64,000 nt of DNA from NCBI GenBank assembly GCA_002347045.1, contig DDWV01000001.1, positions 33,553 to 97,552 on the forward strand, read 5' to 3'. This document shows positions 14,048 through 35,735 of this stretch, piece after piece. This DNA is from Candidatus Collierbacteria bacterium UBA2277 (GTDB lineage Bacteria > Patescibacteriota > Microgenomatia > UBA1400 > MFAQ01). The notes below the pieces were generated by a model. That model searched no databases. It had not been told where the DNA came from and was given only the letters and a program-made list of their open reading frames with translations. The position numbers were made by a program, and so were the translations under genes. Each line of letters begins with the position of its first letter. Position 1 is the stretch's first letter.

Positions 14048-14689
14048 ATGAAGAAATTTGCTTTAGGTGTATCGTCACTTGCTATTTTAGGCTCGTTGGT
14101 CTTGCCAAAAGTAGCCATGGCTAATGAGGGTGTAGCAATGCTAAAAGGTGCTGGAAATAGCGGAGCCTGCTACGCAGCCTCTGTTTTTGTGGATGGTACT
14201 TATCGAGTTTTGGCCACTTGTCGAGATTTGAAGATGGCCCTTTCTCCAGAACAAAATCGTTATGTGGTTTGGGTTACTCAAGAAGACGGAAAGTTTAGAC
14301 GACTAGGTGAAATAGTAAATGGAAAAATGTCCATGGCCACAGACGCGAAGTTTACTAGTTTGTTTGTGACGGCAGAGGCAGATGGTTATGGAAACAAACC
14401 ATCGGAGAGTGTTCTTCTTTCGGGGGCAGTTCAGCCAATTAATTTTGGTTCCGGCATTTCTGGGGTAGAAGTGGCTCCTTCACCAACTCCTACTATTGCA
14501 AAAGAAGCTAAGACTGCGAAAGTTACCCCAACAGAAACTGTGACTGCTGATGAGATAGTGGATGATGACTCAAGCCAAGGTGTGAGTGGAGCATTGTCGA
14601 CGGTTTTGAAAATTGCTTTGTTTGGATTTGGAGCTTTGCTTTTAGTAGTTGGTGTATTTAGCTTTATTTCAAGGAAGAGATCTCTGTAA
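14048..14689 (+). CDS. Secreted protein with signal peptide and C-terminal TM anchor, hypothetical
   Basis: 213 aa; N-terminal signal-like segment; C-terminal LKIALFGFGALLLVVGVFSFISRKRSL. Confidence 0.5.
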   Translation: MKKFALGVSSLAILGSLVLPKVAMANEGVAMLKGAGNSGACYAASVFVDGTYRVLATCRDLKMALSPEQNRYVVWVTQEDGKFRRLGEIVNGKMSMATDAKFTSLFVTAEADGYGNKPSESVLLSGAVQPINFGSGISGVEVAPSPTPTIAKEAKTAKVTPTETVTADEIVDDDSSQGVSGALSTVLKIALFGFGALLLVVGVFSFISRKRSL

Positions 14690-23293: not shown

Positions 23294-24808
23294 ATGGAAA
23301 ATAATAATATATTCCATTTTGCTCGATTAACTTTAGTGTTGTTGGTTGCAATGGCTTTTTCAAGATTATTTTTTTTAACAGTGTTTATGGGTCGGCATTT
23401 TAGCGATCAAGCTTTGGGGAATATGATAAAAATTGAGAGAACTGCAGCAACGAGAGGTGTGATTAGTGATAGAAATGGAAAACCTTTGGCGATGAATATT
23501 GATAACAATGGAGAAGTGGTTAGGTTTTATCCTGCGGGAGAGGTGGTAGCAAGCGTTGTGGGATACTTGGGAAAGTCCGATGAATTATCGAATCTTGGAA
23601 GTGTTTTGGTTGGACGAAGTGGTTTGGAAAAAGAGTATCAGGATAGATTGGTTGGAAGTTTTGGAGAAACGATTGTAGAAGAAACAGCTCAGGGGGTAAA
23701 GAGAACTGAGATTAAAAGACGAGAAGCTGTTCATGGAGAAAACGTGGTTACGAACATCGACTTACCAATCCAACAAACTGCGTATTTAGCTTTGAAAAAC
23801 ACTCTTAATTCTGTTGGGGTAAGTGGGGCAGTCGTCGTGGCGACTGTAGATGGTCGAGTGCTGGCGCTGGTGTCTGCTCCTTCATATGACACAAATTTGT
23901 TTGTTTCGGGTGGAAAAAGAAGTGATTTTGGTGGTGACTTTAAGGATGTAAAAACTTTGTTGAGTGACACCGAGAAAAAGCCTTTGTTTAATAGGGCAAT
24001 TTCTGGGGACTTTGCTTCAGGTTCGGTTTTTAAGTTAGTTCCGGCGTTGGCGGCCTTGGAAGAAAATAAAATTGACAAAGATACTCTGATAGAAGATAGT
24101 GGTGAGATTGTAATTGGAGCTTATCGTTTTGGAAATTGGTTGTTGGATAAATACGGACAGACTGAAGGAAAGATTAACGTAGTAAAAGCTTTAGCTAGGA
24201 GTAACGATATTTTCTTTTACAAGATTGGTGAGTACTTGGGAGCTGATAAATTAATTTCATGGAGTAGTAAGTTGGGATTTGGTGAAGTGACGGGAATTGA
24301 TATTCCCGGAGAGTCTAGAGGTTTTTTACCCACACCATACTGGAGAGAAAGAGTTTTAGGTGAAAAGTGGTACTTGGGAAATACGTATCACTTTTCTATT
24401 GGTCAAGGAGACTTGACAACGACTCCTTTGCAGATCAACAGAATGACGGCAATGGTGGCTTCTGGGATAAAGTGCGATCCAAGGATAGTTGGGGTAGGTG
24501 AGTGTGTTGATTTAAAGATTAGTGAGGGGAATAGGCAAATTGTCTTGGAAGGAATGAAAGCTACTTGTAGTCCAGGGGGTACGGCTTTCCCTTTTTATGA
24601 GTACGAAGGAAAGCTTTACTGTAAAACTGGGACTGCGCAAAAAGGAGGAGAGGAGACATTGCCAAATGCTTGGTTTTCTATGGTGGTTCCGGTTGGAGAT
24701 AATGTTAAAGATTGGATTGTAGTTACAGTTTTAGTAGAAGAGGGGGGTGAGGGAAGTGCCGTAGCTGCACCAATAGCTAAGGAGTTGGTGCCTTTACTTC
24801 TAAAGTAG
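23294..24808 (+). CDS. mrdA: Penicillin-binding protein 2 (class B transpeptidase)
   Basis: SxxK (SGSVFK), SxN (SND), KTG (KTGTA) motifs in order; N-terminal TM; 504 aa. Confidence 0.8.
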   Translation: MENNNIFHFARLTLVLLVAMAFSRLFFLTVFMGRHFSDQALGNMIKIERTAATRGVISDRNGKPLAMNIDNNGEVVRFYPAGEVVASVVGYLGKSDELSNLGSVLVGRSGLEKEYQDRLVGSFGETIVEETAQGVKRTEIKRREAVHGENVVTNIDLPIQQTAYLALKNTLNSVGVSGAVVVATVDGRVLALVSAPSYDTNLFVSGGKRSDFGGDFKDVKTLLSDTEKKPLFNRAISGDFASGSVFKLVPALAALEENKIDKDTLIEDSGEIVIGAYRFGNWLLDKYGQTEGKINVVKALARSNDIFFYKIGEYLGADKLISWSSKLGFGEVTGIDIPGESRGFLPTPYWRERVLGEKWYLGNTYHFSIGQGDLTTTPLQINRMTAMVASGIKCDPRIVGVGECVDLKISEGNRQIVLEGMKATCSPGGTAFPFYEYEGKLYCKTGTAQKGGEETLPNAWFSMVVPVGDNVKDWIVVTVLVEEGGEGSAVAAPIAKELVPLLLK

Positions 24809-24817
24809 CTTATATAC

Positions 24818-24846
24818 TTGACAAATGAGTGTTATTGTGGTATATT
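24818..24846 (+). promoter_or_regulatory. Consensus sigma70-like promoter TTGACA-N17-TATATT
   Basis: TTGACA at 24818-24823, 17-nt spacer, TATATT at 24841-24846, directly after the PBP2 stop. Confidence 0.5.
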
Positions 24847-24854
24847 ATCGGTTA

Positions 24855-25641
24855 TCCTGAAAAAGGATGAACATTTAATTTATTTGATCAATCTAGATAT
24901 AACTTAGAGGCGTAAATATGAGCGTTCGGGATCCCCCGAAAGTTTATTAACTGATGGATAACTCCATCAGTTGTATCTAAAAGTGGAAACTCCTGCCAAA
25001 AAAAAGGAGGCCTATGGCCCGCTTTATGAATAAAATCCAAGTTATGCCTTCTGCCACCTAAGGGATTAGTGGTGTGTAGAGGCTGATGGGTGAGAGTCCT
25101 GTCCAGATCCATATTTGGGAACGCGAACCAAATATGGGAAAAGTGCTTAAGCATCCAGTCCAAGTTACGGGGTGAGGTCTTAATACCTACCACAATTAGC
25201 TACCGTCTTCTGAAAGAGCGGTTGGGTGTGCACAAACAAAAGATCAAAATTATCGGTATGAGAGGAGATTCAGTTCTAAGACAAATGGCCAATGGACAGC
25301 CCGCGGAAGTAATGGCTGCGTCCCCGGTTTTGCCTGACAAATTGAAAATCCTCTTGAGGAGTGAGCGGTGGGGTGGACAGCAAAGGTCACCCATTTTAAG
25401 CCGCTAGAGGTGGAAGGGGGAATGTGAGCCAGCTGTGGCAGCATTCCCTCTAAAAAAGTCCAGGGCAACAGTTCCCTGGCGCATACGATTTGCGGGAGGC
25501 ATGGTCTCGAACCGTGTTTTATTCCCGCCAGGGCGGTCATCCTTGGTATAGTACCGCGCCGTGAGCTTGTTTAAGCTCATTAAGGCGCTGGTGAATCCTA
25601 GGAGTCCCCCTGAAATCTGGCCCTTCTGCAGATACCGCAGA
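24855..25641 (+). ncRNA. Candidate large structured non-coding transcript (~790 nt) between promoter and terminator; identity unknown
   Basis: No credible long ORF. Many perfect hairpins: AACTGATGGA/TCCATCAGTT at ~24941-24968, CCATATTTGG/CCAAATATGG at ~25110-25145, GGGAATG..CATTCCC at ~25413-25449, CCAGGG..CCCTGG, nested GCGGGA[GGCATGG-TCTCGAA-CCGTG]TCCCGC. Terminator at 3' end. Confidence 0.3.
25608..25641 (+). terminator. Rho-independent terminator
   Basis: GGCCCTTCTGC-AGATACC-GCAGAAGGGCC followed by TTTTT. Confidence 0.65.
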
Positions 25642-25719
25642 AGGGCCTTTTTCTTGCTTAAAATTTGCTGTTTTGGTGTTTGTAGTAGAATACTTGGTTC
25701 GAAGTAAGGTATATTTTAT

Positions 25720-27744
25720 ATGGCAATGAAGAAATTAGTTATCGTAGAGTCTCCCACAAAAACAAAAAGTCTCTCCAAGTATTTGGGGTCTGATTTTGAG
25801 ATCTTGGCTTCTATGGGGCATGTGCGTGATCTTCCAAAAAGCAAGCTAGGAATAGAGATTACAGAAAAGGGGAGAGGTAAGTATGATTTTGTTCCTTCGT
25901 ATGAGTTGATGAGTGGAAAAGGAGAACAAGTGAAGAAGTTAGAAGATGCTGCTTCTAAAGTGGACGAGATAATACTGGCAGCTGATCCTGATCGTGAAGG
26001 AGAGGCAATTGCTTGGCATGTTGAGCACATTTTGAAGAGTTCTAGAAAGCTAGCAAATAAGAAAAATCTTGTTTTCAAAAGAATTTCATTTCACTCGATC
26101 ACAAAAGAGTCTGTCCTTGAAGCTTTAGAAAATCCACGAAAAATTGATATGGATATGGTAAATGCCCAACAAGCAAGACGATTCCTGGATCGTTTGGTAG
26201 GGTACAAACTATCTCCAATCCTTTGGAAGAAAGTCCGTAGAGGTTTGTCTGCCGGTCGTGTACAGAGTGTGGCTGTAGAGCTTATTGTAGAGAGAGAACG
26301 AGAAATTGAAAAGTTTAAGCCTGTAGAATACTGGCAAATTAAAGTGCTGGTAGCTACCGAAAAGGGCAAGAAACTTGAGATTGAGTTAGCAAAAATACGA
26401 GGAAAGAAGGCTGAAATAGGTGATTCTGAGAAAGCAAAAAAAATATTGGTTGATCTTGAGAAAGCGAAATATATTGTTTCAGAGATAAAGAAGTCTGAGC
26501 GAAAAACTTCCCCTCATGCACCATTTAAGACATCTACACTACAGCAGGCGGCGGCAAATGTGTTGGGTTGGTCTGCAAAAAGAACAATGAATGTGGCCCA
26601 AAAGCTTTACGAGCAGGGAGACATCACTTATCACCGTACTGATTCATTTTATCTTGCTCCAACAGCTATAGAAGCTGCTAGGAAGTTTATTGGTGAGAAC
26701 TATGGTTCTGAGTATTTACCAAAAGGGCCTCGATTGTTTAAAGCGGCAGGAAAAGTTGTGGCTCAAGAAGCTCATGAGGCAGTCAGACCTACACATATTG
26801 AGATTTCACCAGATGAGTTTACTGGTCAAGAAATGGCTACAGACCAGAAAAAACTTTATTCTTTGATTTGGAGAAGAACTGTAGGTTGTCAGATGGCTGA
26901 CGCCTTGTTTGACAATACCAAGGTGGTTGTGTCGGCAACTTTGGGAGATAGTAAGTCTTCTGATTACGAGTTGACAGCTACAGGAGTTGTGGTTAAGTTT
27001 GCTGGATGGAAAAAGTTGTTTTTGAAAGACAAGGATGAAGTTAAGGTTTTGCCAGAGATGGCAAAAGACGAGATCTTGGAGAAAAAGAAGGTTATAGGCG
27101 ATCAAAAATTTACTCAACCGTCGGCAAGATTCAATGATGCATCTTTAATTAAAGAGTTAGAAAAAAGAGGCATTGGAAGACCTTCAACTTATGCAGCAAT
27201 TATTTCTACTATTTTGGATAGACGCTACGTAGAACAGAGAGATAAAAAGTTTTTCCCAACTACCATTGGTATTGCTGTTGTAGATTTCTTGATGGAAAAC
27301 TTTCCACAAGAGATGGATTATGAGTTTACTGCAAAGATGGAAAACTCGCTCGATGAGATTGCCGATGGGAAATTGAACTGGGAAAAGATGTTGAGTGTTT
27401 TTTGGGATAAGTTTCGTGAACGAATTGTAAAAGTAGATAAGGATAGTGCAAGAGTCGGAGTGCCTACGGTGTCTACAGGAAAAAAGTGTCCAGAGTGTCA
27501 TGAGGGGGAGGTAGTAATTCGTGATGGAAAGTATGGAAAGTTTTTGTCTTGTTCGAGATATCCAGAGTGTACATACAAGGCCCCGTTTATTGAGTTTGTT
27601 TCTGGTGTCGCGTGTGAGAAATGTGGTAAGCGAGTCATTTTAAGAAAGACTCGTACTGGTCGTGACTTTTATGGTTGTGAAGATTATCCAAACTGCACAT
27701 GGGCTAGTTGGCATAAGCCAGGAACGAAAAAAGAAGAAAAGTAG
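25720..27744 (+). CDS. topA: DNA topoisomerase I with C-terminal zinc-ribbon repeats
   Basis: Toprim N-terminus (LVIVESPTKTKS), active-site region, three C4 zinc ribbons at the C-terminus (CPECHEGE..., CSRYPEC..., CEKCGK...); 674 aa. Confidence 0.85.
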   Translation: MAMKKLVIVESPTKTKSLSKYLGSDFEILASMGHVRDLPKSKLGIEITEKGRGKYDFVPSYELMSGKGEQVKKLEDAASKVDEIILAADPDREGEAIAWHVEHILKSSRKLANKKNLVFKRISFHSITKESVLEALENPRKIDMDMVNAQQARRFLDRLVGYKLSPILWKKVRRGLSAGRVQSVAVELIVEREREIEKFKPVEYWQIKVLVATEKGKKLEIELAKIRGKKAEIGDSEKAKKILVDLEKAKYIVSEIKKSERKTSPHAPFKTSTLQQAAANVLGWSAKRTMNVAQKLYEQGDITYHRTDSFYLAPTAIEAARKFIGENYGSEYLPKGPRLFKAAGKVVAQEAHEAVRPTHIEISPDEFTGQEMATDQKKLYSLIWRRTVGCQMADALFDNTKVVVSATLGDSKSSDYELTATGVVVKFAGWKKLFLKDKDEVKVLPEMAKDEILEKKKVIGDQKFTQPSARFNDASLIKELEKRGIGRPSTYAAIISTILDRRYVEQRDKKFFPTTIGIAVVDFLMENFPQEMDYEFTAKMENSLDEIADGKLNWEKMLSVFWDKFRERIVKVDKDSARVGVPTVSTGKKCPECHEGEVVIRDGKYGKFLSCSRYPECTYKAPFIEFVSGVACEKCGKRVILRKTRTGRDFYGCEDYPNCTWASWHKPGTKKEEK

Positions 27745-27771
27745 TTACATGACTTCATTGACCCCATAAGA

Positions 27772-27800
27772 TTGATTTAAGGTGTGTTTTCGGATATAAT
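27772..27800 (+). promoter_or_regulatory. Sigma70-like promoter TTGATT-N17-TATAAT within a 24-nt block duplicated at 29355-29378
   Basis: Block GACCCCATAAGATTGATTTAAGGT; -35 at 27772-27777, -10 at 27795-27800. Confidence 0.5.
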
Positions 27801-27843
27801 ATGCGAGCTGTAGAACATTAAATCTATCGAGGAGGAGGCTTAA

Positions 27844-28362
27844 ATGTATGAAGTGTCTTTACCCCTGAAAGAGCAGTTCACATATTGGGATGTAGTTCGA
27901 TCATTGCCCACAGGCTGGGTTGCTGAGCCGTCAGATGATGGAGTTTTCATCTATGACATTCAAAAGCTTGGTTCCCGTCGTCGAGTTGGCAAGGTGGAAA
28001 TTACCGACAATGAGTTAGTATTTTCTGTCGACGAAAGTACTGAAGATGGTGCCAAGTTCTGGGATGATTTTTCTTATAAATATCCAATGAACTCACCTCA
28101 AAGGGTGTGTTATGGAATTGTTTACAAAATTTCAGAGAAAATTTACCTGTTTGAGAAGACAGTAACCCAGAATTATTTGCCTGGAGTATTGGAAAATATG
28201 AGAAAGTACAAAGCAATTGATGTATATTTCGTTACTTTCTTTTTGGGGGACTTGAAAAAGGGTAAAGAACTGAAGGGTCTTTATCATCAAAGGATTGACT
28301 CTGAAGGTTCCCTGGGAGACACCTGGGGGGAGTGCGTATTTAGTTTTTCTAATCCTGGATAA
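27844..28362 (+). CDS. Hypothetical protein, paralog 1 of a pair flanking thyX
   Basis: 172 aa; shares LP.GW, FW..F..KYP, FV.FFLGD motifs and overall length with the 29439..29972 product. Terminator GAGGGC-TCTAAG-GGGCCCTC-TTTTTT follows. Confidence 0.55.
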   Translation: MYEVSLPLKEQFTYWDVVRSLPTGWVAEPSDDGVFIYDIQKLGSRRRVGKVEITDNELVFSVDESTEDGAKFWDDFSYKYPMNSPQRVCYGIVYKISEKIYLFEKTVTQNYLPGVLENMRKYKAIDVYFVTFFLGDLKKGKELKGLYHQRIDSEGSLGDTWGECVFSFSNPG

Positions 28363-28455
28363 TAGGTTTGTGATTTTTATTTTTGAGGGCTCTAAGGGGC
28401 CCTCTTTTTTGTGGTGTAAAATGACTCGGTTCGTACCTTAAAAAATGGAGGATAA

Positions 28456-29349
28456 ATGCCAGTAAATAATTTAGCTCATGATAAGAGTTTTCCATATGTG
28501 ACACCCGATGTGTTCGAAACTGATAGTGGAGTGAGGTTTTTGCAATCACCGGGGGTTGCGGTGATCAGCGTACCCGACGTTTGTCTTGAAGGAGTAGGGC
28601 AGTTTTTGAGTGGTTTTCCTGATGATCTTGGTTTTTCTGATTACCTTTTGGATCCCACTGTATTGTCGTCTTCTGAGTCTTTGTGTAAGTTTGCAGGGCA
28701 GCTTTGCTATTTATCTTTTGGTCCACAGAGAACTTACAACGAGAACGCTGATAAGTATTTTAAAAATATTAAAATGTCGAGTCATGGTTCTGTTTTGGAA
28801 CACGCGAATATTTCCATGCTTTGGTGGGGTATTAGTAGGACCTTGACACATGAACTAGTTCGTCACAGAGCAGGATACGGATTTTCCCAAGTGTCACAGA
28901 GATATGTAGGCGGGAAGACCATTCGCTTTGTAGAGAGAGTCGAGTTTCAAGATAATGATCTTCTACATCAATGGTTTCTGAGGAGAATTGAGAGGTCATA
29001 TCGGGAGTATATTGAGTTAACAGAGTACTTGGTTTCTCTCCAAAAAGAAGGGGAGAGTTCACTCTCGGCTGAGCGAAAAACTGACCTTCGAAAAAAAGTA
29101 CGCCAAGCATCACGAGCACTATTACCCAATGAAACTGAAGCTCCGATTTTGGTAACGGCAAATGTACGAGCATGGAGACATTTTTTGAATATGCGAGTGA
29201 GTGAGCATGCTGAGGTAGAGATTCGAAGAGTAGGTTACGAAGCGTATCGATGTTTGTATTCCTTGACTCCTTTGCTGTTTGATGATTTTGAAGTGGTTGA
29301 CCTTATTGATGGAACTAAGGGATTGAAAACTGAGTATCCAAAAGTGTAG
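28456..29349 (+). CDS. thyX: Flavin-dependent thymidylate synthase ThyX
   Basis: ThyX signature RHRAGYGFSQVSQRY (RHRxxxxxxSxRY); 297 aa. Confidence 0.85.
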   Translation: MPVNNLAHDKSFPYVTPDVFETDSGVRFLQSPGVAVISVPDVCLEGVGQFLSGFPDDLGFSDYLLDPTVLSSSESLCKFAGQLCYLSFGPQRTYNENADKYFKNIKMSSHGSVLEHANISMLWWGISRTLTHELVRHRAGYGFSQVSQRYVGGKTIRFVERVEFQDNDLLHQWFLRRIERSYREYIELTEYLVSLQKEGESSLSAERKTDLRKKVRQASRALLPNETEAPILVTANVRAWRHFLNMRVSEHAEVEIRRVGYEAYRCLYSLTPLLFDDFEVVDLIDGTKGLKTEYPKV

Positions 29350-29367
29350 GTTTAAGACCCCATAAGA

Positions 29368-29396
29368 TTGACTTAAGGTATATTTTCTCGTAAAAT
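29368..29396 (+). promoter_or_regulatory. Sigma70-like promoter TTGACT-N17-TAAAAT (duplicate of the 27772 module)
   Basis: GACCCCATAAGATTGACTTAAGGT block; -35 at 29368-29373, -10 at 29391-29396. Confidence 0.5.
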
Positions 29397-29438
29397 ACGT
29401 TTATTGTTGCTCATTCAAATATATGTGAGGAGGAAAGA

Positions 29439-29972
29439 ATGTATCGAGTTGAAAGAAAATTAGGAAATACCGATTTTAGGTCGGTTTTAAGAGCTTTACC
29501 AAAAGGCTGGATTATTGAGGCAGTCGGGTATATCAACTTGTTTCAAATATCCAACGAGACAACTTATGTTGGAGTAGGATTTGTGAAGATATTAGACGAG
29601 AAGACAATTTCTATCTTGGTTGACGAAACCGAACCTGATGGTAAGTTGTTTTGGCAGGCTTTTGCCAGGAAGTATCCTGAACAAAATCCATTTGATATTC
29701 GATATGCCCTGCTTTATCAGGTCGGTGGTGAGGGGGAGCTTTATGAGATTGATAAGTACCCAAGTCATTCGATTGGAGACCCTTTTAGTCAGGCTATCCA
29801 TTACAAAAATGTTACAGCATTTGTCGTTTCATTTTTGTTTGGGGACTGGGTTCCTGGGAGGTCTGTTGAGGTAATTGCCTATCAGGAGATTCTGAAAAAT
29901 GGTGATCTTGGGCCAGAACAGCCAGCAAGAGTTTTCCGGCTTGCGGGTATCGAAAACGAAAATACAATGTAG
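29439..29972 (+). CDS. Hypothetical protein, paralog 2 of the pair flanking thyX
   Basis: 177 aa; same motif set as 27844..28362. Terminator GCTCCGGCT-TTCA-GCCGGAGC-TTTTTT follows. Confidence 0.55.
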   Translation: MYRVERKLGNTDFRSVLRALPKGWIIEAVGYINLFQISNETTYVGVGFVKILDEKTISILVDETEPDGKLFWQAFARKYPEQNPFDIRYALLYQVGGEGELYEIDKYPSHSIGDPFSQAIHYKNVTAFVVSFLFGDWVPGRSVEVIAYQEILKNGDLGPEQPARVFRLAGIENENTM

Positions 29973-30091
29973 TCTATTTTGCTCCGGCTTTCAGCCGGAG
30001 CTTTTTTATAAGTGTTTAAAGAAGTATCACTACAATAGACTCTTGTAGTTTTAGGTATTGTCAGAAGCAATTTTTTGATTTATCTTAGGTA

Positions 30092-30295
30092 ATGACAGAA
30101 AAATTTGAAAGCGACTTTCACAAAAGGTATGTTGGTGGTCAAGGTGACGTGGAAGAAAAAGAGACGTTTGTGTTTCCTGCAAAAAATGTTGAGAAAATTC
30201 CATATGATGAGATTTTGGCCGAGTATCGAAAATATGTGGGAGACTCAGATGCAGAATTACCCGGTGAGTTGTTATTGTTTAGCATGTTTAGCTAG
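30092..30295 (+). CDS. Small acidic hypothetical protein
   Basis: 67-aa ORF; its stop abuts the tmk start (TAGATGG). Confidence 0.3.
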   Translation: MTEKFESDFHKRYVGGQGDVEEKETFVFPAKNVEKIPYDEILAEYRKYVGDSDAELPGELLLFSMFS

Positions 30296-30925
30296 ATGGT
30301 AGAAAAAAGAAAACCATTTGTTGTGGCTGAGGGTGGAAGTGGTGCTGGGAAAACAACAGCAATTGAAGGAATCAAGAAGGAATTGTCTGACTGGAAGTTT
30401 TTTAGAGAGCCTGGTGGCTCAGAGTTTGGAGAAGCGATGAGGGAAGCTGTCCAACAACATAAGGATTGGGAGATTGACCCCCTGGCCTCAGTATTGGCTT
30501 ACAGCGCTTCAAGGGCAAATTTGATTAATACACAAGTTGTTCCTGTGCTTGAAGGTTATGTTCCTGCCAATGGTGTGTTTTTGGATAGGTATTGGTTTTC
30601 AACGTATGCCTATCAGGGTGGTGGAGAGGGTGTCGATAGGGAAATAATATTGGCAGTAAGTAAGATGGCTACAAGGGGGCTGTTGCCGGACCTAGTACTG
30701 CATTATGATTTGGTTCCGGAGCTTGCTGTGGCTCGAAAATCTAAATGTAGTGATATAGACAGGTATGACATGAAAGAGTTGGAGTTTCATCGCAAGGCTA
30801 GAGATGGGTATTTGGAGTTGTCGGTGATGTTTCCTGATTTTTGGAGAGTAATTGATTCATCACAGAGTAAAGAAAAAGTTTTGCTCGATTCATTGATGAC
30901 ATTGAGAGAGTTTGGTATGGTTTAA
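30296..30925 (+). CDS. tmk: Thymidylate kinase-like (dTMP kinase)
   Basis: P-loop VAEGGSGAGKTT followed by FREPGG; length ~209 aa; position next to thyX. Confidence 0.65.
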   Translation: MVEKRKPFVVAEGGSGAGKTTAIEGIKKELSDWKFFREPGGSEFGEAMREAVQQHKDWEIDPLASVLAYSASRANLINTQVVPVLEGYVPANGVFLDRYWFSTYAYQGGGEGVDREIILAVSKMATRGLLPDLVLHYDLVPELAVARKSKCSDIDRYDMKELEFHRKARDGYLELSVMFPDFWRVIDSSQSKEKVLLDSLMTLREFGMV

Positions 30926-32591: not shown

Positions 32592-33806
32592 ATGAAAGAT
32601 ATGATCGGACAGTTAATTGAAAAAGAGTCGAAACGACAGTCTGATACTTTGAGTTTAATCCCATCTGAAAACTATGCCTCTTGTGACGTGCGTGAAGCAA
32701 TAGGCTCTGTATTGGCAAATAAATATGCTGAAGGATATCCAGGAAGAAGGTATTACCAAGGAAACGATGTGGTGGATGAAGTGGAGAACTTGGCTATTGA
32801 GAGAGGTAAAAAGCTTTTTAAACTAGAACACATTAATGTGCAGCCTTACTCTGGAAGCCCAGCTAACTTGGCTGTGTTACTTGCATTGGTGTCTCCAGGA
32901 GACATCATTTGTGGAATGGAACTTTCAGCGGGAGGCCATCTGACGCATGGACACAAAGTTAGTGTTACAGGGAAGTGGTTTCGAAGTGTGCAGTATGGAG
33001 TAGACAGTACAGGAAAAATTGATTATGAGGCTCTGTCTAAGCTAGTAACTACCGAGAAACCAAAAGTAATCATTGCAGGGACTACTGCATATCCATGGAG
33101 TATTAATTGGAAAATGTTTGCTGAGATAGCTGAGAGTGTTGATGCTTATCTTGTAGCTGATATCAGTCATATCGCAGGACTAATTGCAGGTGGTGCAATG
33201 GAAAGTCCTGTTGACTATGTTCATTTGATAACAAGCACGACTCACAAGGCGCTAAGAGGGCCTAGGGGGGCTTTTATAGGGGTGACAAATAATGGACTTG
33301 AGAAAGATGACTCTTTGTCGGGAAAGATTGATAAGGCTGTGTTCCCAGGGTTGCAGGGTGGTCCTCATATGAACGCTATCGCAGGTATGGCGGTCGCTTT
33401 TGAAGAGGCGAGTCAGGTTGAGTTTGGATCGTACTGTGTAAAAGTGTTGAAAAACGCTAAAATTTTGGCTAGTGAGTTGAGTGCTAGGGGGGTGAAGGTG
33501 TTTGGAACTGAGAATCATCTTATGCTTTTGGACGTTGGGCTACAAAAAGGAAAAGAAGTGGCTATAGCTTTAGAAAAGGCGGGAATTGTGGTAAATGCTA
33601 ATACTGTACCGGGTGAAAAGGGCAGTCCAGTGAACCCGTCTGGTATACGGATAGGCACTCCAGCTGTTACGACAAGAGGTATGGGTGAAAATGAGATGAA
33701 AATTGTGGCAGAATTGATTTACAGAGTAATTTCCGGAAACAATCCTGAAGAGGTAAAAATCGATGTTATTAAATTGTGTAGGAAGTTTCCTTGCCTTGAG
33801 ATATAG
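32592..33806 (+). CDS. glyA: Serine hydroxymethyltransferase
   Basis: PLP-site region TTHKALRGPRG, SGSPANLAV, overall SHMT architecture; 404 aa. Confidence 0.9.
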   Translation: MKDMIGQLIEKESKRQSDTLSLIPSENYASCDVREAIGSVLANKYAEGYPGRRYYQGNDVVDEVENLAIERGKKLFKLEHINVQPYSGSPANLAVLLALVSPGDIICGMELSAGGHLTHGHKVSVTGKWFRSVQYGVDSTGKIDYEALSKLVTTEKPKVIIAGTTAYPWSINWKMFAEIAESVDAYLVADISHIAGLIAGGAMESPVDYVHLITSTTHKALRGPRGAFIGVTNNGLEKDDSLSGKIDKAVFPGLQGGPHMNAIAGMAVAFEEASQVEFGSYCVKVLKNAKILASELSARGVKVFGTENHLMLLDVGLQKGKEVAIALEKAGIVVNANTVPGEKGSPVNPSGIRIGTPAVTTRGMGENEMKIVAELIYRVISGNNPEEVKIDVIKLCRKFPCLEI

Positions 33807-34982: not shown

Positions 34983-35735
34983 ATGAAGACATTTCTAAAT
35001 GGTAAGAAGGAATCAGAAAAAATTGCTATGTTTTTGGAGGAGTCAGAAAGACTTTTGGGGAAAAGCTTAATTATCATTCAGTGCGATGGCCATGTCGAAG
35101 AGAGTATGTATGTCAGATTAAAGAGAGAAATGGGTGAAAGGCTTGGGGTAATGGTAAGTGTTTTGTTTGCAAAAAATATCGATGAGGTTGAGGAGTTTGT
35201 TAGTGACGCCAATGGTGATGATACAGTTGATGGGATATTGGTTCAGTTGCCGATTCTGGGAGCTGACATCGATAAAATAGATCAAATTTTGTGTTCGATT
35301 AATCCAGCTAAGGATATTGACGGATTAAACCCGAAATCTAGGTTCATTCCGGCGGTAGTTAGGGCGGTTGAAAGAGCAATGGAGATTTTTAAAATAAGTA
35401 AAACTGAGAGAGTTGTGGTGGTGGGTTCGTTGGGAGAGGTTGGAAAACGGTTAGTAAAGAGATTGATTTCTTTAGGGTTTGACGTGACGGGTTTTGATAA
35501 GGGAGACAATCTGCATGAGCTGAAGAAGTTTGATGTCGTTATAGGAGCTACTGGAGTCGATGGACTTGTCAAAGGCAACTTTGTGTCAGATGGTGTTACT
35601 GCTATTGACTTGGGTTATCCAAAAGGGGATTTTTCTCCCGAGGCTTTAGAAAAAGCAGAGAAGATTACACCAGTACCAAACGGGGTAGGTCCTTTGACAA
35701 TTGTGTCGTTATTTGAAAGCTTGGCTGAAGTATAG
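34983..35735 (+). CDS. folD: Methylenetetrahydrofolate dehydrogenase/cyclohydrolase FolD-like
   Basis: GILVQLPI, PAKDIDG, VVVVGSLGEVGKRL, TPVPNGVGPLTIV match FolD motifs; follows glyA (one-carbon module). Confidence 0.7.
   Translation: MKTFLNGKKESEKIAMFLEESERLLGKSLIIIQCDGHVEESMYVRLKREMGERLGVMVSVLFAKNIDEVEEFVSDANGDDTVDGILVQLPILGADIDKIDQILCSINPAKDIDGLNPKSRFIPAVVRAVERAMEIFKISKTERVVVVGSLGEVGKRLVKRLISLGFDVTGFDKGDNLHELKKFDVVIGATGVDGLVKGNFVSDGVTAIDLGYPKGDFSPEALEKAEKITPVPNGVGPLTIVSLFESLAEV

What the first reader, a model, noticed from the sequence alone, without database searches (positions are those of the whole stretch)
27758..29972. Duplicated promoter+gene modules flanking thyX
Two paralogous hypothetical genes (27844..28362, 172 aa; 29439..29972, 177 aa) sit on either side of thyX. 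They share motifs (LP.GW, FW..F..KYP, FV.FFLGD). Each is preceded by the same 24-nt block GACCCCATAAGATTGAYTTAAGGT, which contains a TTGAYT-N17-TAWAAT promoter (27772-27800 and 29368-29396). Each is followed by its own terminator. The arrangement suggests a tandem duplication into which thyX was inserted, or a two-copy regulated module linked to thymidylate synthesis (thyX, tmk, glyA and folD all lie within 8 kb). The protein family is unrecognised.
Basis: seen in the sequence. Interest (0 to 1): 0.5.

Follow-up and report, generated by a model that had tools for sequence, protein, structure and literature searches.

The report
Duplicated orphan gene with conserved promoter
Two old copies of a small protein of unknown function, found only in one group of tiny-genome bacteria (Candidatus Collierbacteria), sit on either side of the thymidylate synthase gene thyX; each copy has the same family-specific promoter and its own terminator, but the tie to thymidylate synthesis looks like shared location rather than shared function.

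Summary
ORF A (27844-28362) and ORF B (29439-29972) are true paralogs (28% identity, E=7e-19). Each follows a copy of the 24-nt block (23/24 identical; none expected by chance), which holds a -35/N17/-10 promoter, and each ends in a strong intrinsic terminator.

The family always sits in a variable island between topA and tmk, in 0, 1, 2 or more copies. A 14-nt core of the block (CCCATAAGATTGAC) is conserved upstream of family genes in at least 11 lineages and occurs upstream of no other gene in the Collierbacteria DNA read.

The "thyX inserted into a tandem duplication" idea is not supported. topA-family-thyX is the common order, B sits where relatives carry Nramp, and A and B are not sister copies. 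Family and thyX presence are uncorrelated.

Function remains inferred: probably a non-enzymatic, partner-binding protein. This is an ordinary-to-modest finding. A large structured non-coding region upstream of topA, noticed in passing, may deserve more attention.

The parts
27760..27783 (+). 24-nt block, copy 1. The family-wide conserved core CCCATAAGATTGAT lies at 27763-27776: 9 nt upstream of the -35 hexamer plus the first 5 bases of that hexamer.
27772..27800 (+). Promoter of paralog A: -35 TTGATT (27772-27777), 17-nt spacer, -10 TATAAT (27795-27800). There is no TG extension.
   Evidence: the same architecture is conserved in orthologous loci
27807..27843 (+). Predicted 5'UTR of A. It carries the genome-wide leader motif GAACATTAAA (27813-27822) and the Shine-Dalgarno sequence AGGAGGAGG (27830-27838). 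It has no significant secondary structure.
27844..28362 (+). Paralog A, 172 aa. It is a long-branch member of the family and lacks the conserved C-terminal tail. It is under purifying selection (dN/dS 0.13 against L001).
28385..28410 (+). Intrinsic terminator of A: an 8-bp GC-rich stem followed by a T run.
28412..28422 (+). thyX's own extended -10 promoter TGGTGTAAAAT, followed by the leader CGTACCTTAAAAAA and GGAGG. It is conserved in 8 loci.
28456..29349 (+). thyX (FAD-dependent thymidylate synthase, 297 aa). It is not part of the duplicated module. No terminator lies between it and B.
29356..29379 (+). 24-nt block, copy 2. The core CCCATAAGATTGAC lies at 29359-29372. The block starts 7 nt after the thyX stop codon.
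29368..29396 (+). Promoter of paralog B: -35 TTGACT, 17-nt spacer, -10 TAAAAT.
29403..29438 (+). Predicted 5'UTR of B. It carries the leader motif CTCATTCAAA (29410-29419) and the Shine-Dalgarno sequence GAGGAGG (29427-29433). It is unstructured.
29439..29972 (+). Paralog B, 177 aa. It is a canonical family member and keeps the conserved C-terminal tail ...LAGIENENTM. It evolves fast: 58% identity to the L001 ortholog over the first 92 aa, against 84% for A and for thyX.
29981..30007 (+). Intrinsic terminator of B (and of any thyX read-through): a 9-bp stem followed by a T run.

Best explanation
A and B are two anciently diverged paralogs of an undescribed protein family seen only in Collierbacteria-type loci. 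The family has about 175 aa and is soluble, acidic and two-domain. It lives in a variable gene island between topA and the tmk-glyA-folD cluster.

Each paralog is an autonomous transcription unit. It has a sigma-70-type -35/-10 promoter without a TG extension, a short unstructured leader with a strong Shine-Dalgarno sequence, and an intrinsic terminator.

The 24-nt block is the family's own promoter signature. Its 14-nt core (CCCATAAGA plus TTGAC of the -35) was inherited with the gene and kept by selection, so both copies are most likely expressed through the same recognition event. That event could be the sigma factor plus an upstream contact, or a dedicated factor binding CCCATAAGA next to the -35.

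thyX lies between the copies because all three genes occupy the same island, not because the family needs thyX.

Shown here: paralogy, family distribution, promoter and terminator anatomy, conservation and specificity of the core, lack of co-occurrence with thyX, purifying selection on A and fast evolution of B.

Inferred: the protein is non-enzymatic, because no polar residue is invariant. It probably acts by binding a partner, partly through the conserved C-terminal tail L-G-N-[IL]-E-N-[ED]-x-[TS]-M, which B keeps and A has lost. The recurrent two-copy state suggests that the copies have divided functions or work together as a hetero-oligomer.
For: Paralogy: (E=7e-19).

Family size and reach: the exhaustive profile search finds 47 representatives, nearly all 165-185 aa, and the alignment is. 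Contexts all lie in Collierbacteria/Microgenomates-type loci. There are no hits in Pfam, NCBIfam, PHROGs, PADLOC or PDB sequences, whether searched with single proteins, with the profile (PDB), or member by member over all 42 aligned members (Pfam). There are none in IMG/VR, phages or plasmids.

Near-invariant columns are P, G, F, V and L only. Both proteins have pI 5.0 and no hydrophobic segment.

Promoter core: CC[CT]ATA[AG]GATTGAY with at most 2 mismatches is found in about 1.1 Mb of fetched loci only upstream of family genes, apart from chance hits inside coding sequence (one in an unrelated window ORF, three in Sulfurimonas topA). It is absent from related loci that lack the gene. It aligns with a 17-nt spacer and TAnAAT in 13 promoters. 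The metagenome scan recovered 6 family loci, 4 of them new (L141 is the L003 contig, L142 the same locus as L131); the remaining 46 hits lie in loci without a family gene and fit chance.

Island variability and copy number of 0, 1, 2 or more.

No association with thyX.

Selection: A has dN/dS 0.13; B has dN 0.35 against 0.11 for thyX.

Terminators.
Against: No transcription data exist, so the promoters, transcription start sites and terminators are predictions. The CCCATAAGA part is not universal in the family: L147, L148 and the whole second clade lack it while keeping the -35 and -10. It may therefore be dispensable.

Conserved promoter elements are common in this lineage; the thyX promoter is equally conserved. 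Conservation alone therefore does not prove a special regulator.

Within the clade that carries the block, every locus with readable downstream DNA has thyX next to the family gene (10 of 10). A functional tie to thyX in that clade cannot be excluded.

The protein function is pure inference. Absence of the family from a locus does not prove absence from the genome.
Confidence: 0.6

Rival explanations
1. ThyX accessory module. On this reading the two proteins work with ThyX, for example as a regulator, chaperone, or flavin/folate-handling partner. They would be co-regulated with dTMP synthesis through the shared block.
Against: Five related genomes have thyX at this locus without the family, and at least four loci have the family without thyX. 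thyX has its own separate promoter without the block, and A is terminated before thyX. No catalytic-type residue is conserved. The flavin-reductase hits are no better than many unrelated folds.
Confidence: 0.13
2. Autoregulated DNA-binding protein. On this reading the family protein itself binds CCCATAAGA next to its -35, so the cis-element travels with the gene as an operator for its own product.
For: The core is strictly co-inherited with the gene and is seen upstream of no other gene in 64 kb of the window plus the related loci. Two lineages, L012/L131 and L137, carry a second degenerate copy of the box 21-24 nt upstream, about two helical turns away.
Confidence: 0.1
3. Fast-evolving conflict gene. 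On this reading the family is an immunity, anti-toxin, defence or host-interaction protein sitting in a hypervariable island, and it diversifies by duplication.
For: Presence is patchy, at 0 to 5 copies per locus. L004 has tandem arrays and N-domain-only fragments. Divergence is very fast: 30-39% identity where topA is about 79%, thyX 57-70% and tmk 62-78%. B's dN is 3-4 times that of its neighbours. The island content is variable.
Against: There is no PADLOC or PHROG hit. No toxin- or nuclease-like partner is consistently adjacent. There is no mobile-element signature, and no phage, plasmid or viral relative. The position is fixed rather than mobile.
Confidence: 0.12
4. Recent duplication or gene conversion artefact. 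On this reading the 24-nt identity reflects a recent copy-paste of a promoter cassette, or a recombination junction, rather than selection.
For: In the window the identity (23/24) extends beyond the 14-nt core. In the close relative L001 the two copies share only 17/24. The spacer regions of A and B within the window are more alike than B and its L001 ortholog. This hints at local conversion over about 30 nt.
Against: The coding regions are only 28% identical, so the duplication itself is old. The core is conserved across many genomes that have a single copy. No repeats, integrase or att-like structure flank the units.
Confidence: 0.05

Closest known systems
Lineage-restricted 'hypothetical protein' (ORFan/DUF-type) families of CPR/Patescibacteria genomes
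   Same: It is a small soluble protein without detectable relatives outside one candidate phylum-level group. It is present patchily and duplicated locally. Sources annotate it only as a hypothetical protein.
   Different: Here the family comes with a recognisable, conserved promoter signature, a fixed chromosomal address (the topA-tmk island), a confident predicted structure and a conserved C-terminal tail. That makes it more tractable than most ORFans.
KA1-type alpha+beta domains (Chk1/MARK/AMPK-alpha C-terminal domains) and Sm/LSm barrels
   Different: The scores are marginal and the matches are partial (50-75 residues, 5-18% identity). No Sm1/Sm2 sequence motifs are present. No full-length match exists, and no known protein combining the two halves was recovered.
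Sigma-70 promoters with sequence-specific contacts just upstream of the -35 (UP-element proximal subsite, or activator/repressor sites abutting the -35)
   Same: A conserved 9-nt stretch lies directly upstream of a consensus-like -35, with a 17-nt spacer and a -10. This position is the one used by alpha-CTD or by class II regulators; that statement rests on established knowledge, not on a test here.
   Different: CCCATAAGA is not A/T-rich like UP elements. Its binding factor is unknown. It is restricted to one gene family in the DNA examined.
thyX-tmk-glyA-folD thymidylate/folate gene clusters
   Same: The window has thyX, tmk, glyA and folD within about 7.3 kb, and relatives keep tmk, glyA and folD together.
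   Different: The family gene is not a constant member of that cluster. It is present or absent independently of thyX.

Membership tests
Same protein family (paralogy of A and B) | Significant pairwise similarity over the full length, and a common profile | tested here: met
   BLASTP E=7e-19 over 171 aa. Both score 1e-50 or better against the family HMM.
Sigma-70-type -35/-10 promoter | TTGACA-like and TATAAT-like hexamers 17+-1 nt apart, upstream of the gene | tested here: met
   Both sites match 10 of 12 positions with a 17-nt spacer. The same geometry is seen in 13 aligned family promoters.
Sigma-70-type -35/-10 promoter | A transcription start about 7 nt downstream of the -10, shown experimentally | not testable with these tools
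Intrinsic (Rho-independent) terminator | A GC-rich hairpin followed directly by a T run, downstream of the stop codon | tested here: met
   28385-28404 folds at -15.7 kcal/mol (z -3.4) and 29981-30001 at -17.7 kcal/mol (z -6.3), each followed by T6. Equivalent hairpins follow the family gene in relatives.
Any curated protein family (Pfam, NCBIfam, PHROGs, PADLOC) or solved structure by sequence | A score above the family threshold | tested here: not met
   There are no hits for A, for B, or for any of the 42 aligned members at E<=0.1 beyond three single spurious ones. The best PDB E-value is 1.1 by phmmer and 1.7 by profile.
Sm/LSm/Hfq-like proteins | An Sm fold (N-terminal helix plus 5 bent strands) with Sm1/Sm2 motifs and a ring oligomer | tested here: inconclusive
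RimP-like two-domain proteins (N-terminal alpha/beta domain plus C-terminal Sm-like domain); this lead came from memory | Sequence or fold match to RimP | tested here: not met
Functional partner of ThyX (conserved gene pair) | Co-occurrence of the two genes across related genomes beyond shared synteny | tested here: not met
   In loci selected through topA, the family/thyX counts are ++ 2, +- 1, -+ 5, -- 3. The family occurs without thyX in L004/5, L007 and L143. Caveat: only the locus was examined, not whole genomes.
Toxin-antitoxin, immunity or defence system | A match to known defence models, or a conserved adjacent toxin/effector partner | tested here: not met
   PADLOC gives none. The neighbours vary: thyX, Nramp, GT87, small ORFs.
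Autoregulatory transcription factor with its own operator | A DNA-binding domain, plus a repeated or symmetric operator at its own promoter | tested here: inconclusive
   No DNA-binding domain is detected. The core is asymmetric. A second degenerate box lies 21-24 nt upstream in L012/L131 and L137 only. Binding is not testable here.

The most novel reading that the evidence does not exclude
The family is a new fold combination: a KA1-like domain plus an Sm-like domain, ending in a conserved acidic C-terminal docking tail. It would form a Collierbacteria-specific, self-contained regulatory or conflict module. In this reading paralog pairs act as hetero-oligomers (tail-bearing B with tail-less A, or 'type 1' with 'type 2'), they are switched on through a dedicated factor that reads CCCATAAGA beside the -35, and they act on a conserved partner near DNA metabolism such as TopA, ThyX or Tmk.
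Probability: 0.12. Interest if true: 0.55.

Novelty: new member of a known kind. Interest (0 to 1): 0.3.

Why it matters
If the reading is right, this is a well-delimited example of a CPR-specific orphan family that can actually be tested. It has a confident structure model, a fixed genomic address, a 14-nt promoter signature that could serve as bait for its regulator, and a conserved C-terminal tail that could serve as bait for its partner. It also gives a small view of promoter architecture in an uncultured lineage, where -35-dependent promoters coexist with extended -10 promoters, leaderless genes and a shared leader motif. It does not change any general concept, and it does not add a new player to thymidylate synthesis.

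Tried and rejected
- **Word-indexed homolog searches.** Searches with A, with B and with the 42-sequence profile returned almost nothing: the queries themselves plus P0002, P0049, P0012 and P0048. Only the exhaustive HMM search revealed the family.
- **Related-locus search with the full alignment.** This failed because no stretch was conserved enough. Searching genome contigs and viral contigs with B alone found nothing.
- **Long repetitive 'hits'.** P0033, P0042, P0045 and P0047 are SprB, Kelch and similar repeat proteins, so they are spurious.
- **5'UTR element.** The conserved ~GAAC[AT]TT[ACT]AAA looked at first like a second family-specific site. It was rejected because the same motif precedes the Shine-Dalgarno sequence of thyX and many unrelated genes in the window.
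- **RNA structure or riboswitch in the two leaders.** Rejected: z -0.4 and -0.1, and no Rfam hit.
- **Metagenome scan for the block.** It gave 46 hits in loci without a family gene. In number they fit chance matches among real promoters, and they were not treated as a regulon.
- **Literature.** No paper contains the block sequence, and none links Collierbacteria with thymidylate synthase.
- **One script timed out** and was redone with a simpler shuffle.
Full report

The window holds ORF A (27844..28362, 172 aa) and ORF B (29439..29972, 177 aa) on either side of a 297-aa ORF (28456..29349). That middle ORF is ThyX by Pfam Thy1 (2.3e-38) and TIGR02170 (4.4e-31).

A and B align end to end at 28% identity, E=7e-19.

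The 24-nt block occurs at 27760-27783 and 29356-29379 with one Y difference. It occurs nowhere else in 64 kb even with three mismatches, and no shuffle gave a match. The similarity runs on for 63 nt at 73%.

The consensus scan ranks exactly these two sites as the best promoter-like sites in the region: TTGATT-17-TATAAT and TTGACT-17-TAAAAT. It also finds a terminator after each gene. Those hairpins fold at -15.7 and -17.7 kcal/mol, with z -3.4 and -6.3.

tmk (30296..30925), glyA (32592..33806) and folD (34983..35735) are confirmed.

**2. Whose genome, and how big is the family?**

The closest topA relatives (60-80% amino-acid identity) are MAGs. Those carrying a usable organism name are labelled Candidatus Collierbacteria, Microgenomates group or Patescibacteria group. 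The source contig is 646,801 nt. This is therefore a CPR/Patescibacteria genome.

Word-indexed searches found only the queries themselves plus one 84%-identical protein. The exhaustive profile search of 1.84 billion representatives found 47 proteins at E<=1e-3, 34 of them at E<=1e-10. Nearly all are single-domain proteins of 165-185 aa. The four long hits are unrelated repeat proteins.

No Pfam, NCBIfam, PHROG, PADLOC or PDB-sequence relative exists for A, for B or, in Pfam, for any of the 42 aligned members; the family profile also finds nothing among PDB sequences. No relative was found in IMG/VR, phage or plasmid collections.

**3. The protein.**

With the 42-sequence alignment, AlphaFold gives a confident model: pLDDT 90.9, pTM 0.83. 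The order of elements is beta-alpha-beta4-alpha (residues 1-80), then beta2-alpha-beta4 (88-167).

The near-invariant columns are P22, G49, F72, P85, V130, G135, G155, L157 and L168. No polar or catalytic-type residue is invariant. Both window proteins are acidic (pI 5.0) and have no hydrophobic segment. The inference is a soluble, non-enzymatic, binding-type protein.

The best conserved stretch of sequence is a C-terminal tail, L-x-L-G-N-[IL]-E-N-[ED]-x-[TS]-M. It sits at the very C-terminus in about half of the members, including B (LAGIENENTM). A ends ...FSFSNPG and lacks it.

**4. Where the family lives.**

In every locus with readable context the family gene lies just downstream of topA, inside an interval that ends at a small conserved ORF plus tmk. 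That interval is highly variable between related genomes:
- topA-sm-tmk with nothing in between: L013.
- Tandem-domain ThyX only: L011, L014, L018 (Pfam).
- Family-thyX-Nramp: L008, L015.
- Family-Nramp: L007.
- Family-family: L016, L143, L145.
- An array of two full copies plus three N-domain-only fragments: L004.

A divergent 'type 2' subfamily (L143_181, L145_190, L016b, L020, L021, L004a/b) was recognised by HMM and pairwise BLAST. The two-copy state therefore recurs in several lineages with different pairs of paralogs.

**5. Is thyX part of the module?**

The evidence says no. The 13 species-representative loci were chosen only through topA. Of the 11 that read far enough downstream, the family and thyX occur together in 2, the family alone in 1, thyX alone in 5, and neither in 3. 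Family-selected loci also include complete topA-to-tmk intervals without thyX.

thyX has its own promoter: an extended -10 TGGTGTAAAAT placed right after the family gene's terminator, conserved in eight loci and without the block.

One caveat remains. In the clade that carries the block, every locus with enough downstream DNA does have thyX adjacent. Also, I could only examine loci, not whole genomes.

**6. Was thyX inserted into a tandem duplicate?**

This is not supported. A single family copy followed by thyX is the common arrangement. B sits in the slot that relatives fill with Nramp.

In the neighbour-joining tree B falls among canonical, tail-bearing members: 39% identity to P0006 and 37% to L002. 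A, together with its L001 ortholog, is a long tail-less branch that is 28% identical to B.

Against the close relative L001, A and thyX are both 84% identical (A: dN/dS 0.13). The first 92 residues of B are only 58% identical, with dN 0.35 against 0.11 for thyX. B is therefore a fast-evolving gene, while A has diverged far in the past but is now constrained.

**7. The block.**

Thirteen family promoters from about eleven lineages were aligned. The alignment shows an almost invariant CCCATAAGATTGAC (9 nt plus the first five bases of the -35), a 17-nt spacer and TAnAAT. The proteins downstream are only about 30-39% identical.

In about 1.1 Mb of fetched loci, the core with at most two mismatches appears only upstream of family genes. 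The exceptions are chance hits inside coding sequence: one in an unrelated ORF of the window and three in Sulfurimonas topA. The core is absent from the related loci that lack the family.

A metagenome-wide scan for the core plus the -10 returned 52 loci. Six are family loci, two of which duplicate loci already in hand (L141 is the L003 contig and L142 the same locus as L131). The rest are loci without a family gene and with different flanking sequence, in numbers compatible with chance among real promoters.

The core is not universal. L147, L148 and the second clade keep the -35 and -10 but not CCCATAAGA.

From, my unquantified impression is that most promoters in the window are extended -10 or leaderless types. 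The family promoters lack the TG and rely on a consensus -35, which by itself explains part of the conservation. The extra 9 nt suggest an additional contact, by a factor or by RNA polymerase alpha. This is inference.

The 23/24 identity in the window exceeds the 17/24 seen between the two copies in L001. Some local gene conversion between the two promoters is possible.

A second conserved element in the leaders (GAAC[AT]TT[ACT]AAA) turned out to be a genome-wide leader motif and is not family-specific. The leaders have no significant structure and no Rfam match.

**8. Most likely mechanism.**

Each paralog is an autonomous unit: P(-35/-10), a short leader, a strong Shine-Dalgarno sequence, the ORF and a terminator. 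The likely transcripts are as follows.
- topA may read into A, because no terminator lies between them.
- A stops at 28385-28410.
- thyX starts at its own promoter and can read through into B.
- B also has its own promoter, and everything stops at 29981-30007.

Both paralogs share one recognition signature and are probably expressed together.

The proteins are probably non-catalytic partner-binding modules. The tail-bearing B keeps the ancestral interaction, and the tail-less A has either changed or lost it. Recurrent paralog pairs hint at hetero-oligomers.

Rivals and their estimated probabilities are a ThyX accessory (0.13), an autoregulator (0.10), a conflict gene (0.12) and a conversion artefact (0.05). 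Details are in the rival section.

**9. Novelty and verdict.**

The gene organisation is ordinary. The protein family is undescribed and confined to one CPR lineage. The promoter signature is a neat, testable detail. The proposed link to thymidylate synthesis is not supported. Interest is 0.3.

**10. Seen in passing.**

The 912-nt PBP2-topA spacer (24809-25719) has a promoter, the leader motif and a terminator, but no ORF. It folds far better than shuffles, with z -7 to -9. The equivalent spacers in relatives do too, with z -5.5 to -17, against -0.5 to -1.5 for coding controls. No Rfam family matches, and only the ends of the spacers are conserved in sequence. This may be a more interesting lead than the assigned finding.

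Noticed in passing
window 24809-25719 (+), between the PBP2 gene (23294-24808) and topA (25720-27744); also L143:3881-5009, L145:4350-5290, L019:6207-7003, L021:5576-6575, L012:5964-7000: A 0.8-1.1 kb non-coding spacer. It has its own promoter (TTGACA-N17-TATATT at about 24818-24848), the leader motif GAACATTTAA and a strong terminator (about 25619-25655). It is GC-richer (0.48) than the genome (0.40). It folds at -282 kcal/mol against -233+-7 for dinucleotide shuffles (z -7.0). The syntenic spacers of relatives give z -5.5 to -17, while coding controls give -0.5 to -1.5. There is no Rfam family at gathering score, and none worth noting at E<=1. Only the first ~70 nt and the last ~60-80 nt are conserved in sequence between lineages. 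In two relatives (L016, L018) the spacer instead holds a ~360-aa ORF. This is a candidate large structured RNA, or an array of hairpins, of unknown kind.
   Followed up: partly
window, e.g. starts at 14048(+), 17342(-), 18183(-), 32592(+, glyA), 38389(+), 39001(+), 57433(-), 58393(-): Many genes appear leaderless: a TAnAAT box lies only 6-8 nt before the start codon and there is no Shine-Dalgarno sequence. Other genes have leaders with a strong GGAGG. This suggests two classes of translation initiation in the genome.
   Followed up: no
window 5'UTRs of 11189(+), 21697(+), 27844(+), 28456(+), 29439(+), 45380(-), 46227(+), 56039(-); thyX leaders in L001, L002, L008, L015, L115, L129, L142: Leadered genes share a motif, GAAC[AT]TT[ACT]AAA(A), about 5-20 nt upstream of the GGAGG. 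It is conserved across relatives upstream of thyX as CGAACTTTAAAAA. It could be a lineage-wide translation or mRNA-stability signal.
   Followed up: partly
window 30092-30295 (+): A 67-aa ORF abuts the tmk start. It is conserved (42-55% identity) as a 70-119 aa ORF immediately upstream of, and overlapping, tmk in most related loci. It has no family hit in Pfam, PHROGs or PADLOC.
   Followed up: partly
L011:9020-10666(-), L014:9034-10632(-), L012, L003, L145, L148: Several Collierbacteria carry a 533-557 aa ThyX with two Thy1 domains in one chain, on the opposite strand. The window instead has the 297-aa single-domain form with a ~70-aa N-terminal extension.
   Followed up: partly
L004:3889-6013: An array of family genes: two full-length 'type 2' copies plus three short ORFs (78, 80-105 and 103-105 aa) that match only the N-terminal domain. 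This suggests the N-domain can stand alone, or that copies decay in place.
   Followed up: partly
whole window: There is a strong and uniform positive GC skew (+0.2 to +0.4 per 2 kb) over nearly all 64 kb at about 40% GC. The window therefore lies on one replichore with an unusually marked strand asymmetry.
   Followed up: no
L145:480-563 (-): A c-di-GMP-II riboswitch (66.8 bits, E=1.4e-12) occurs in a related Collierbacteria-type contig, upstream of the mreC region.
   Followed up: no
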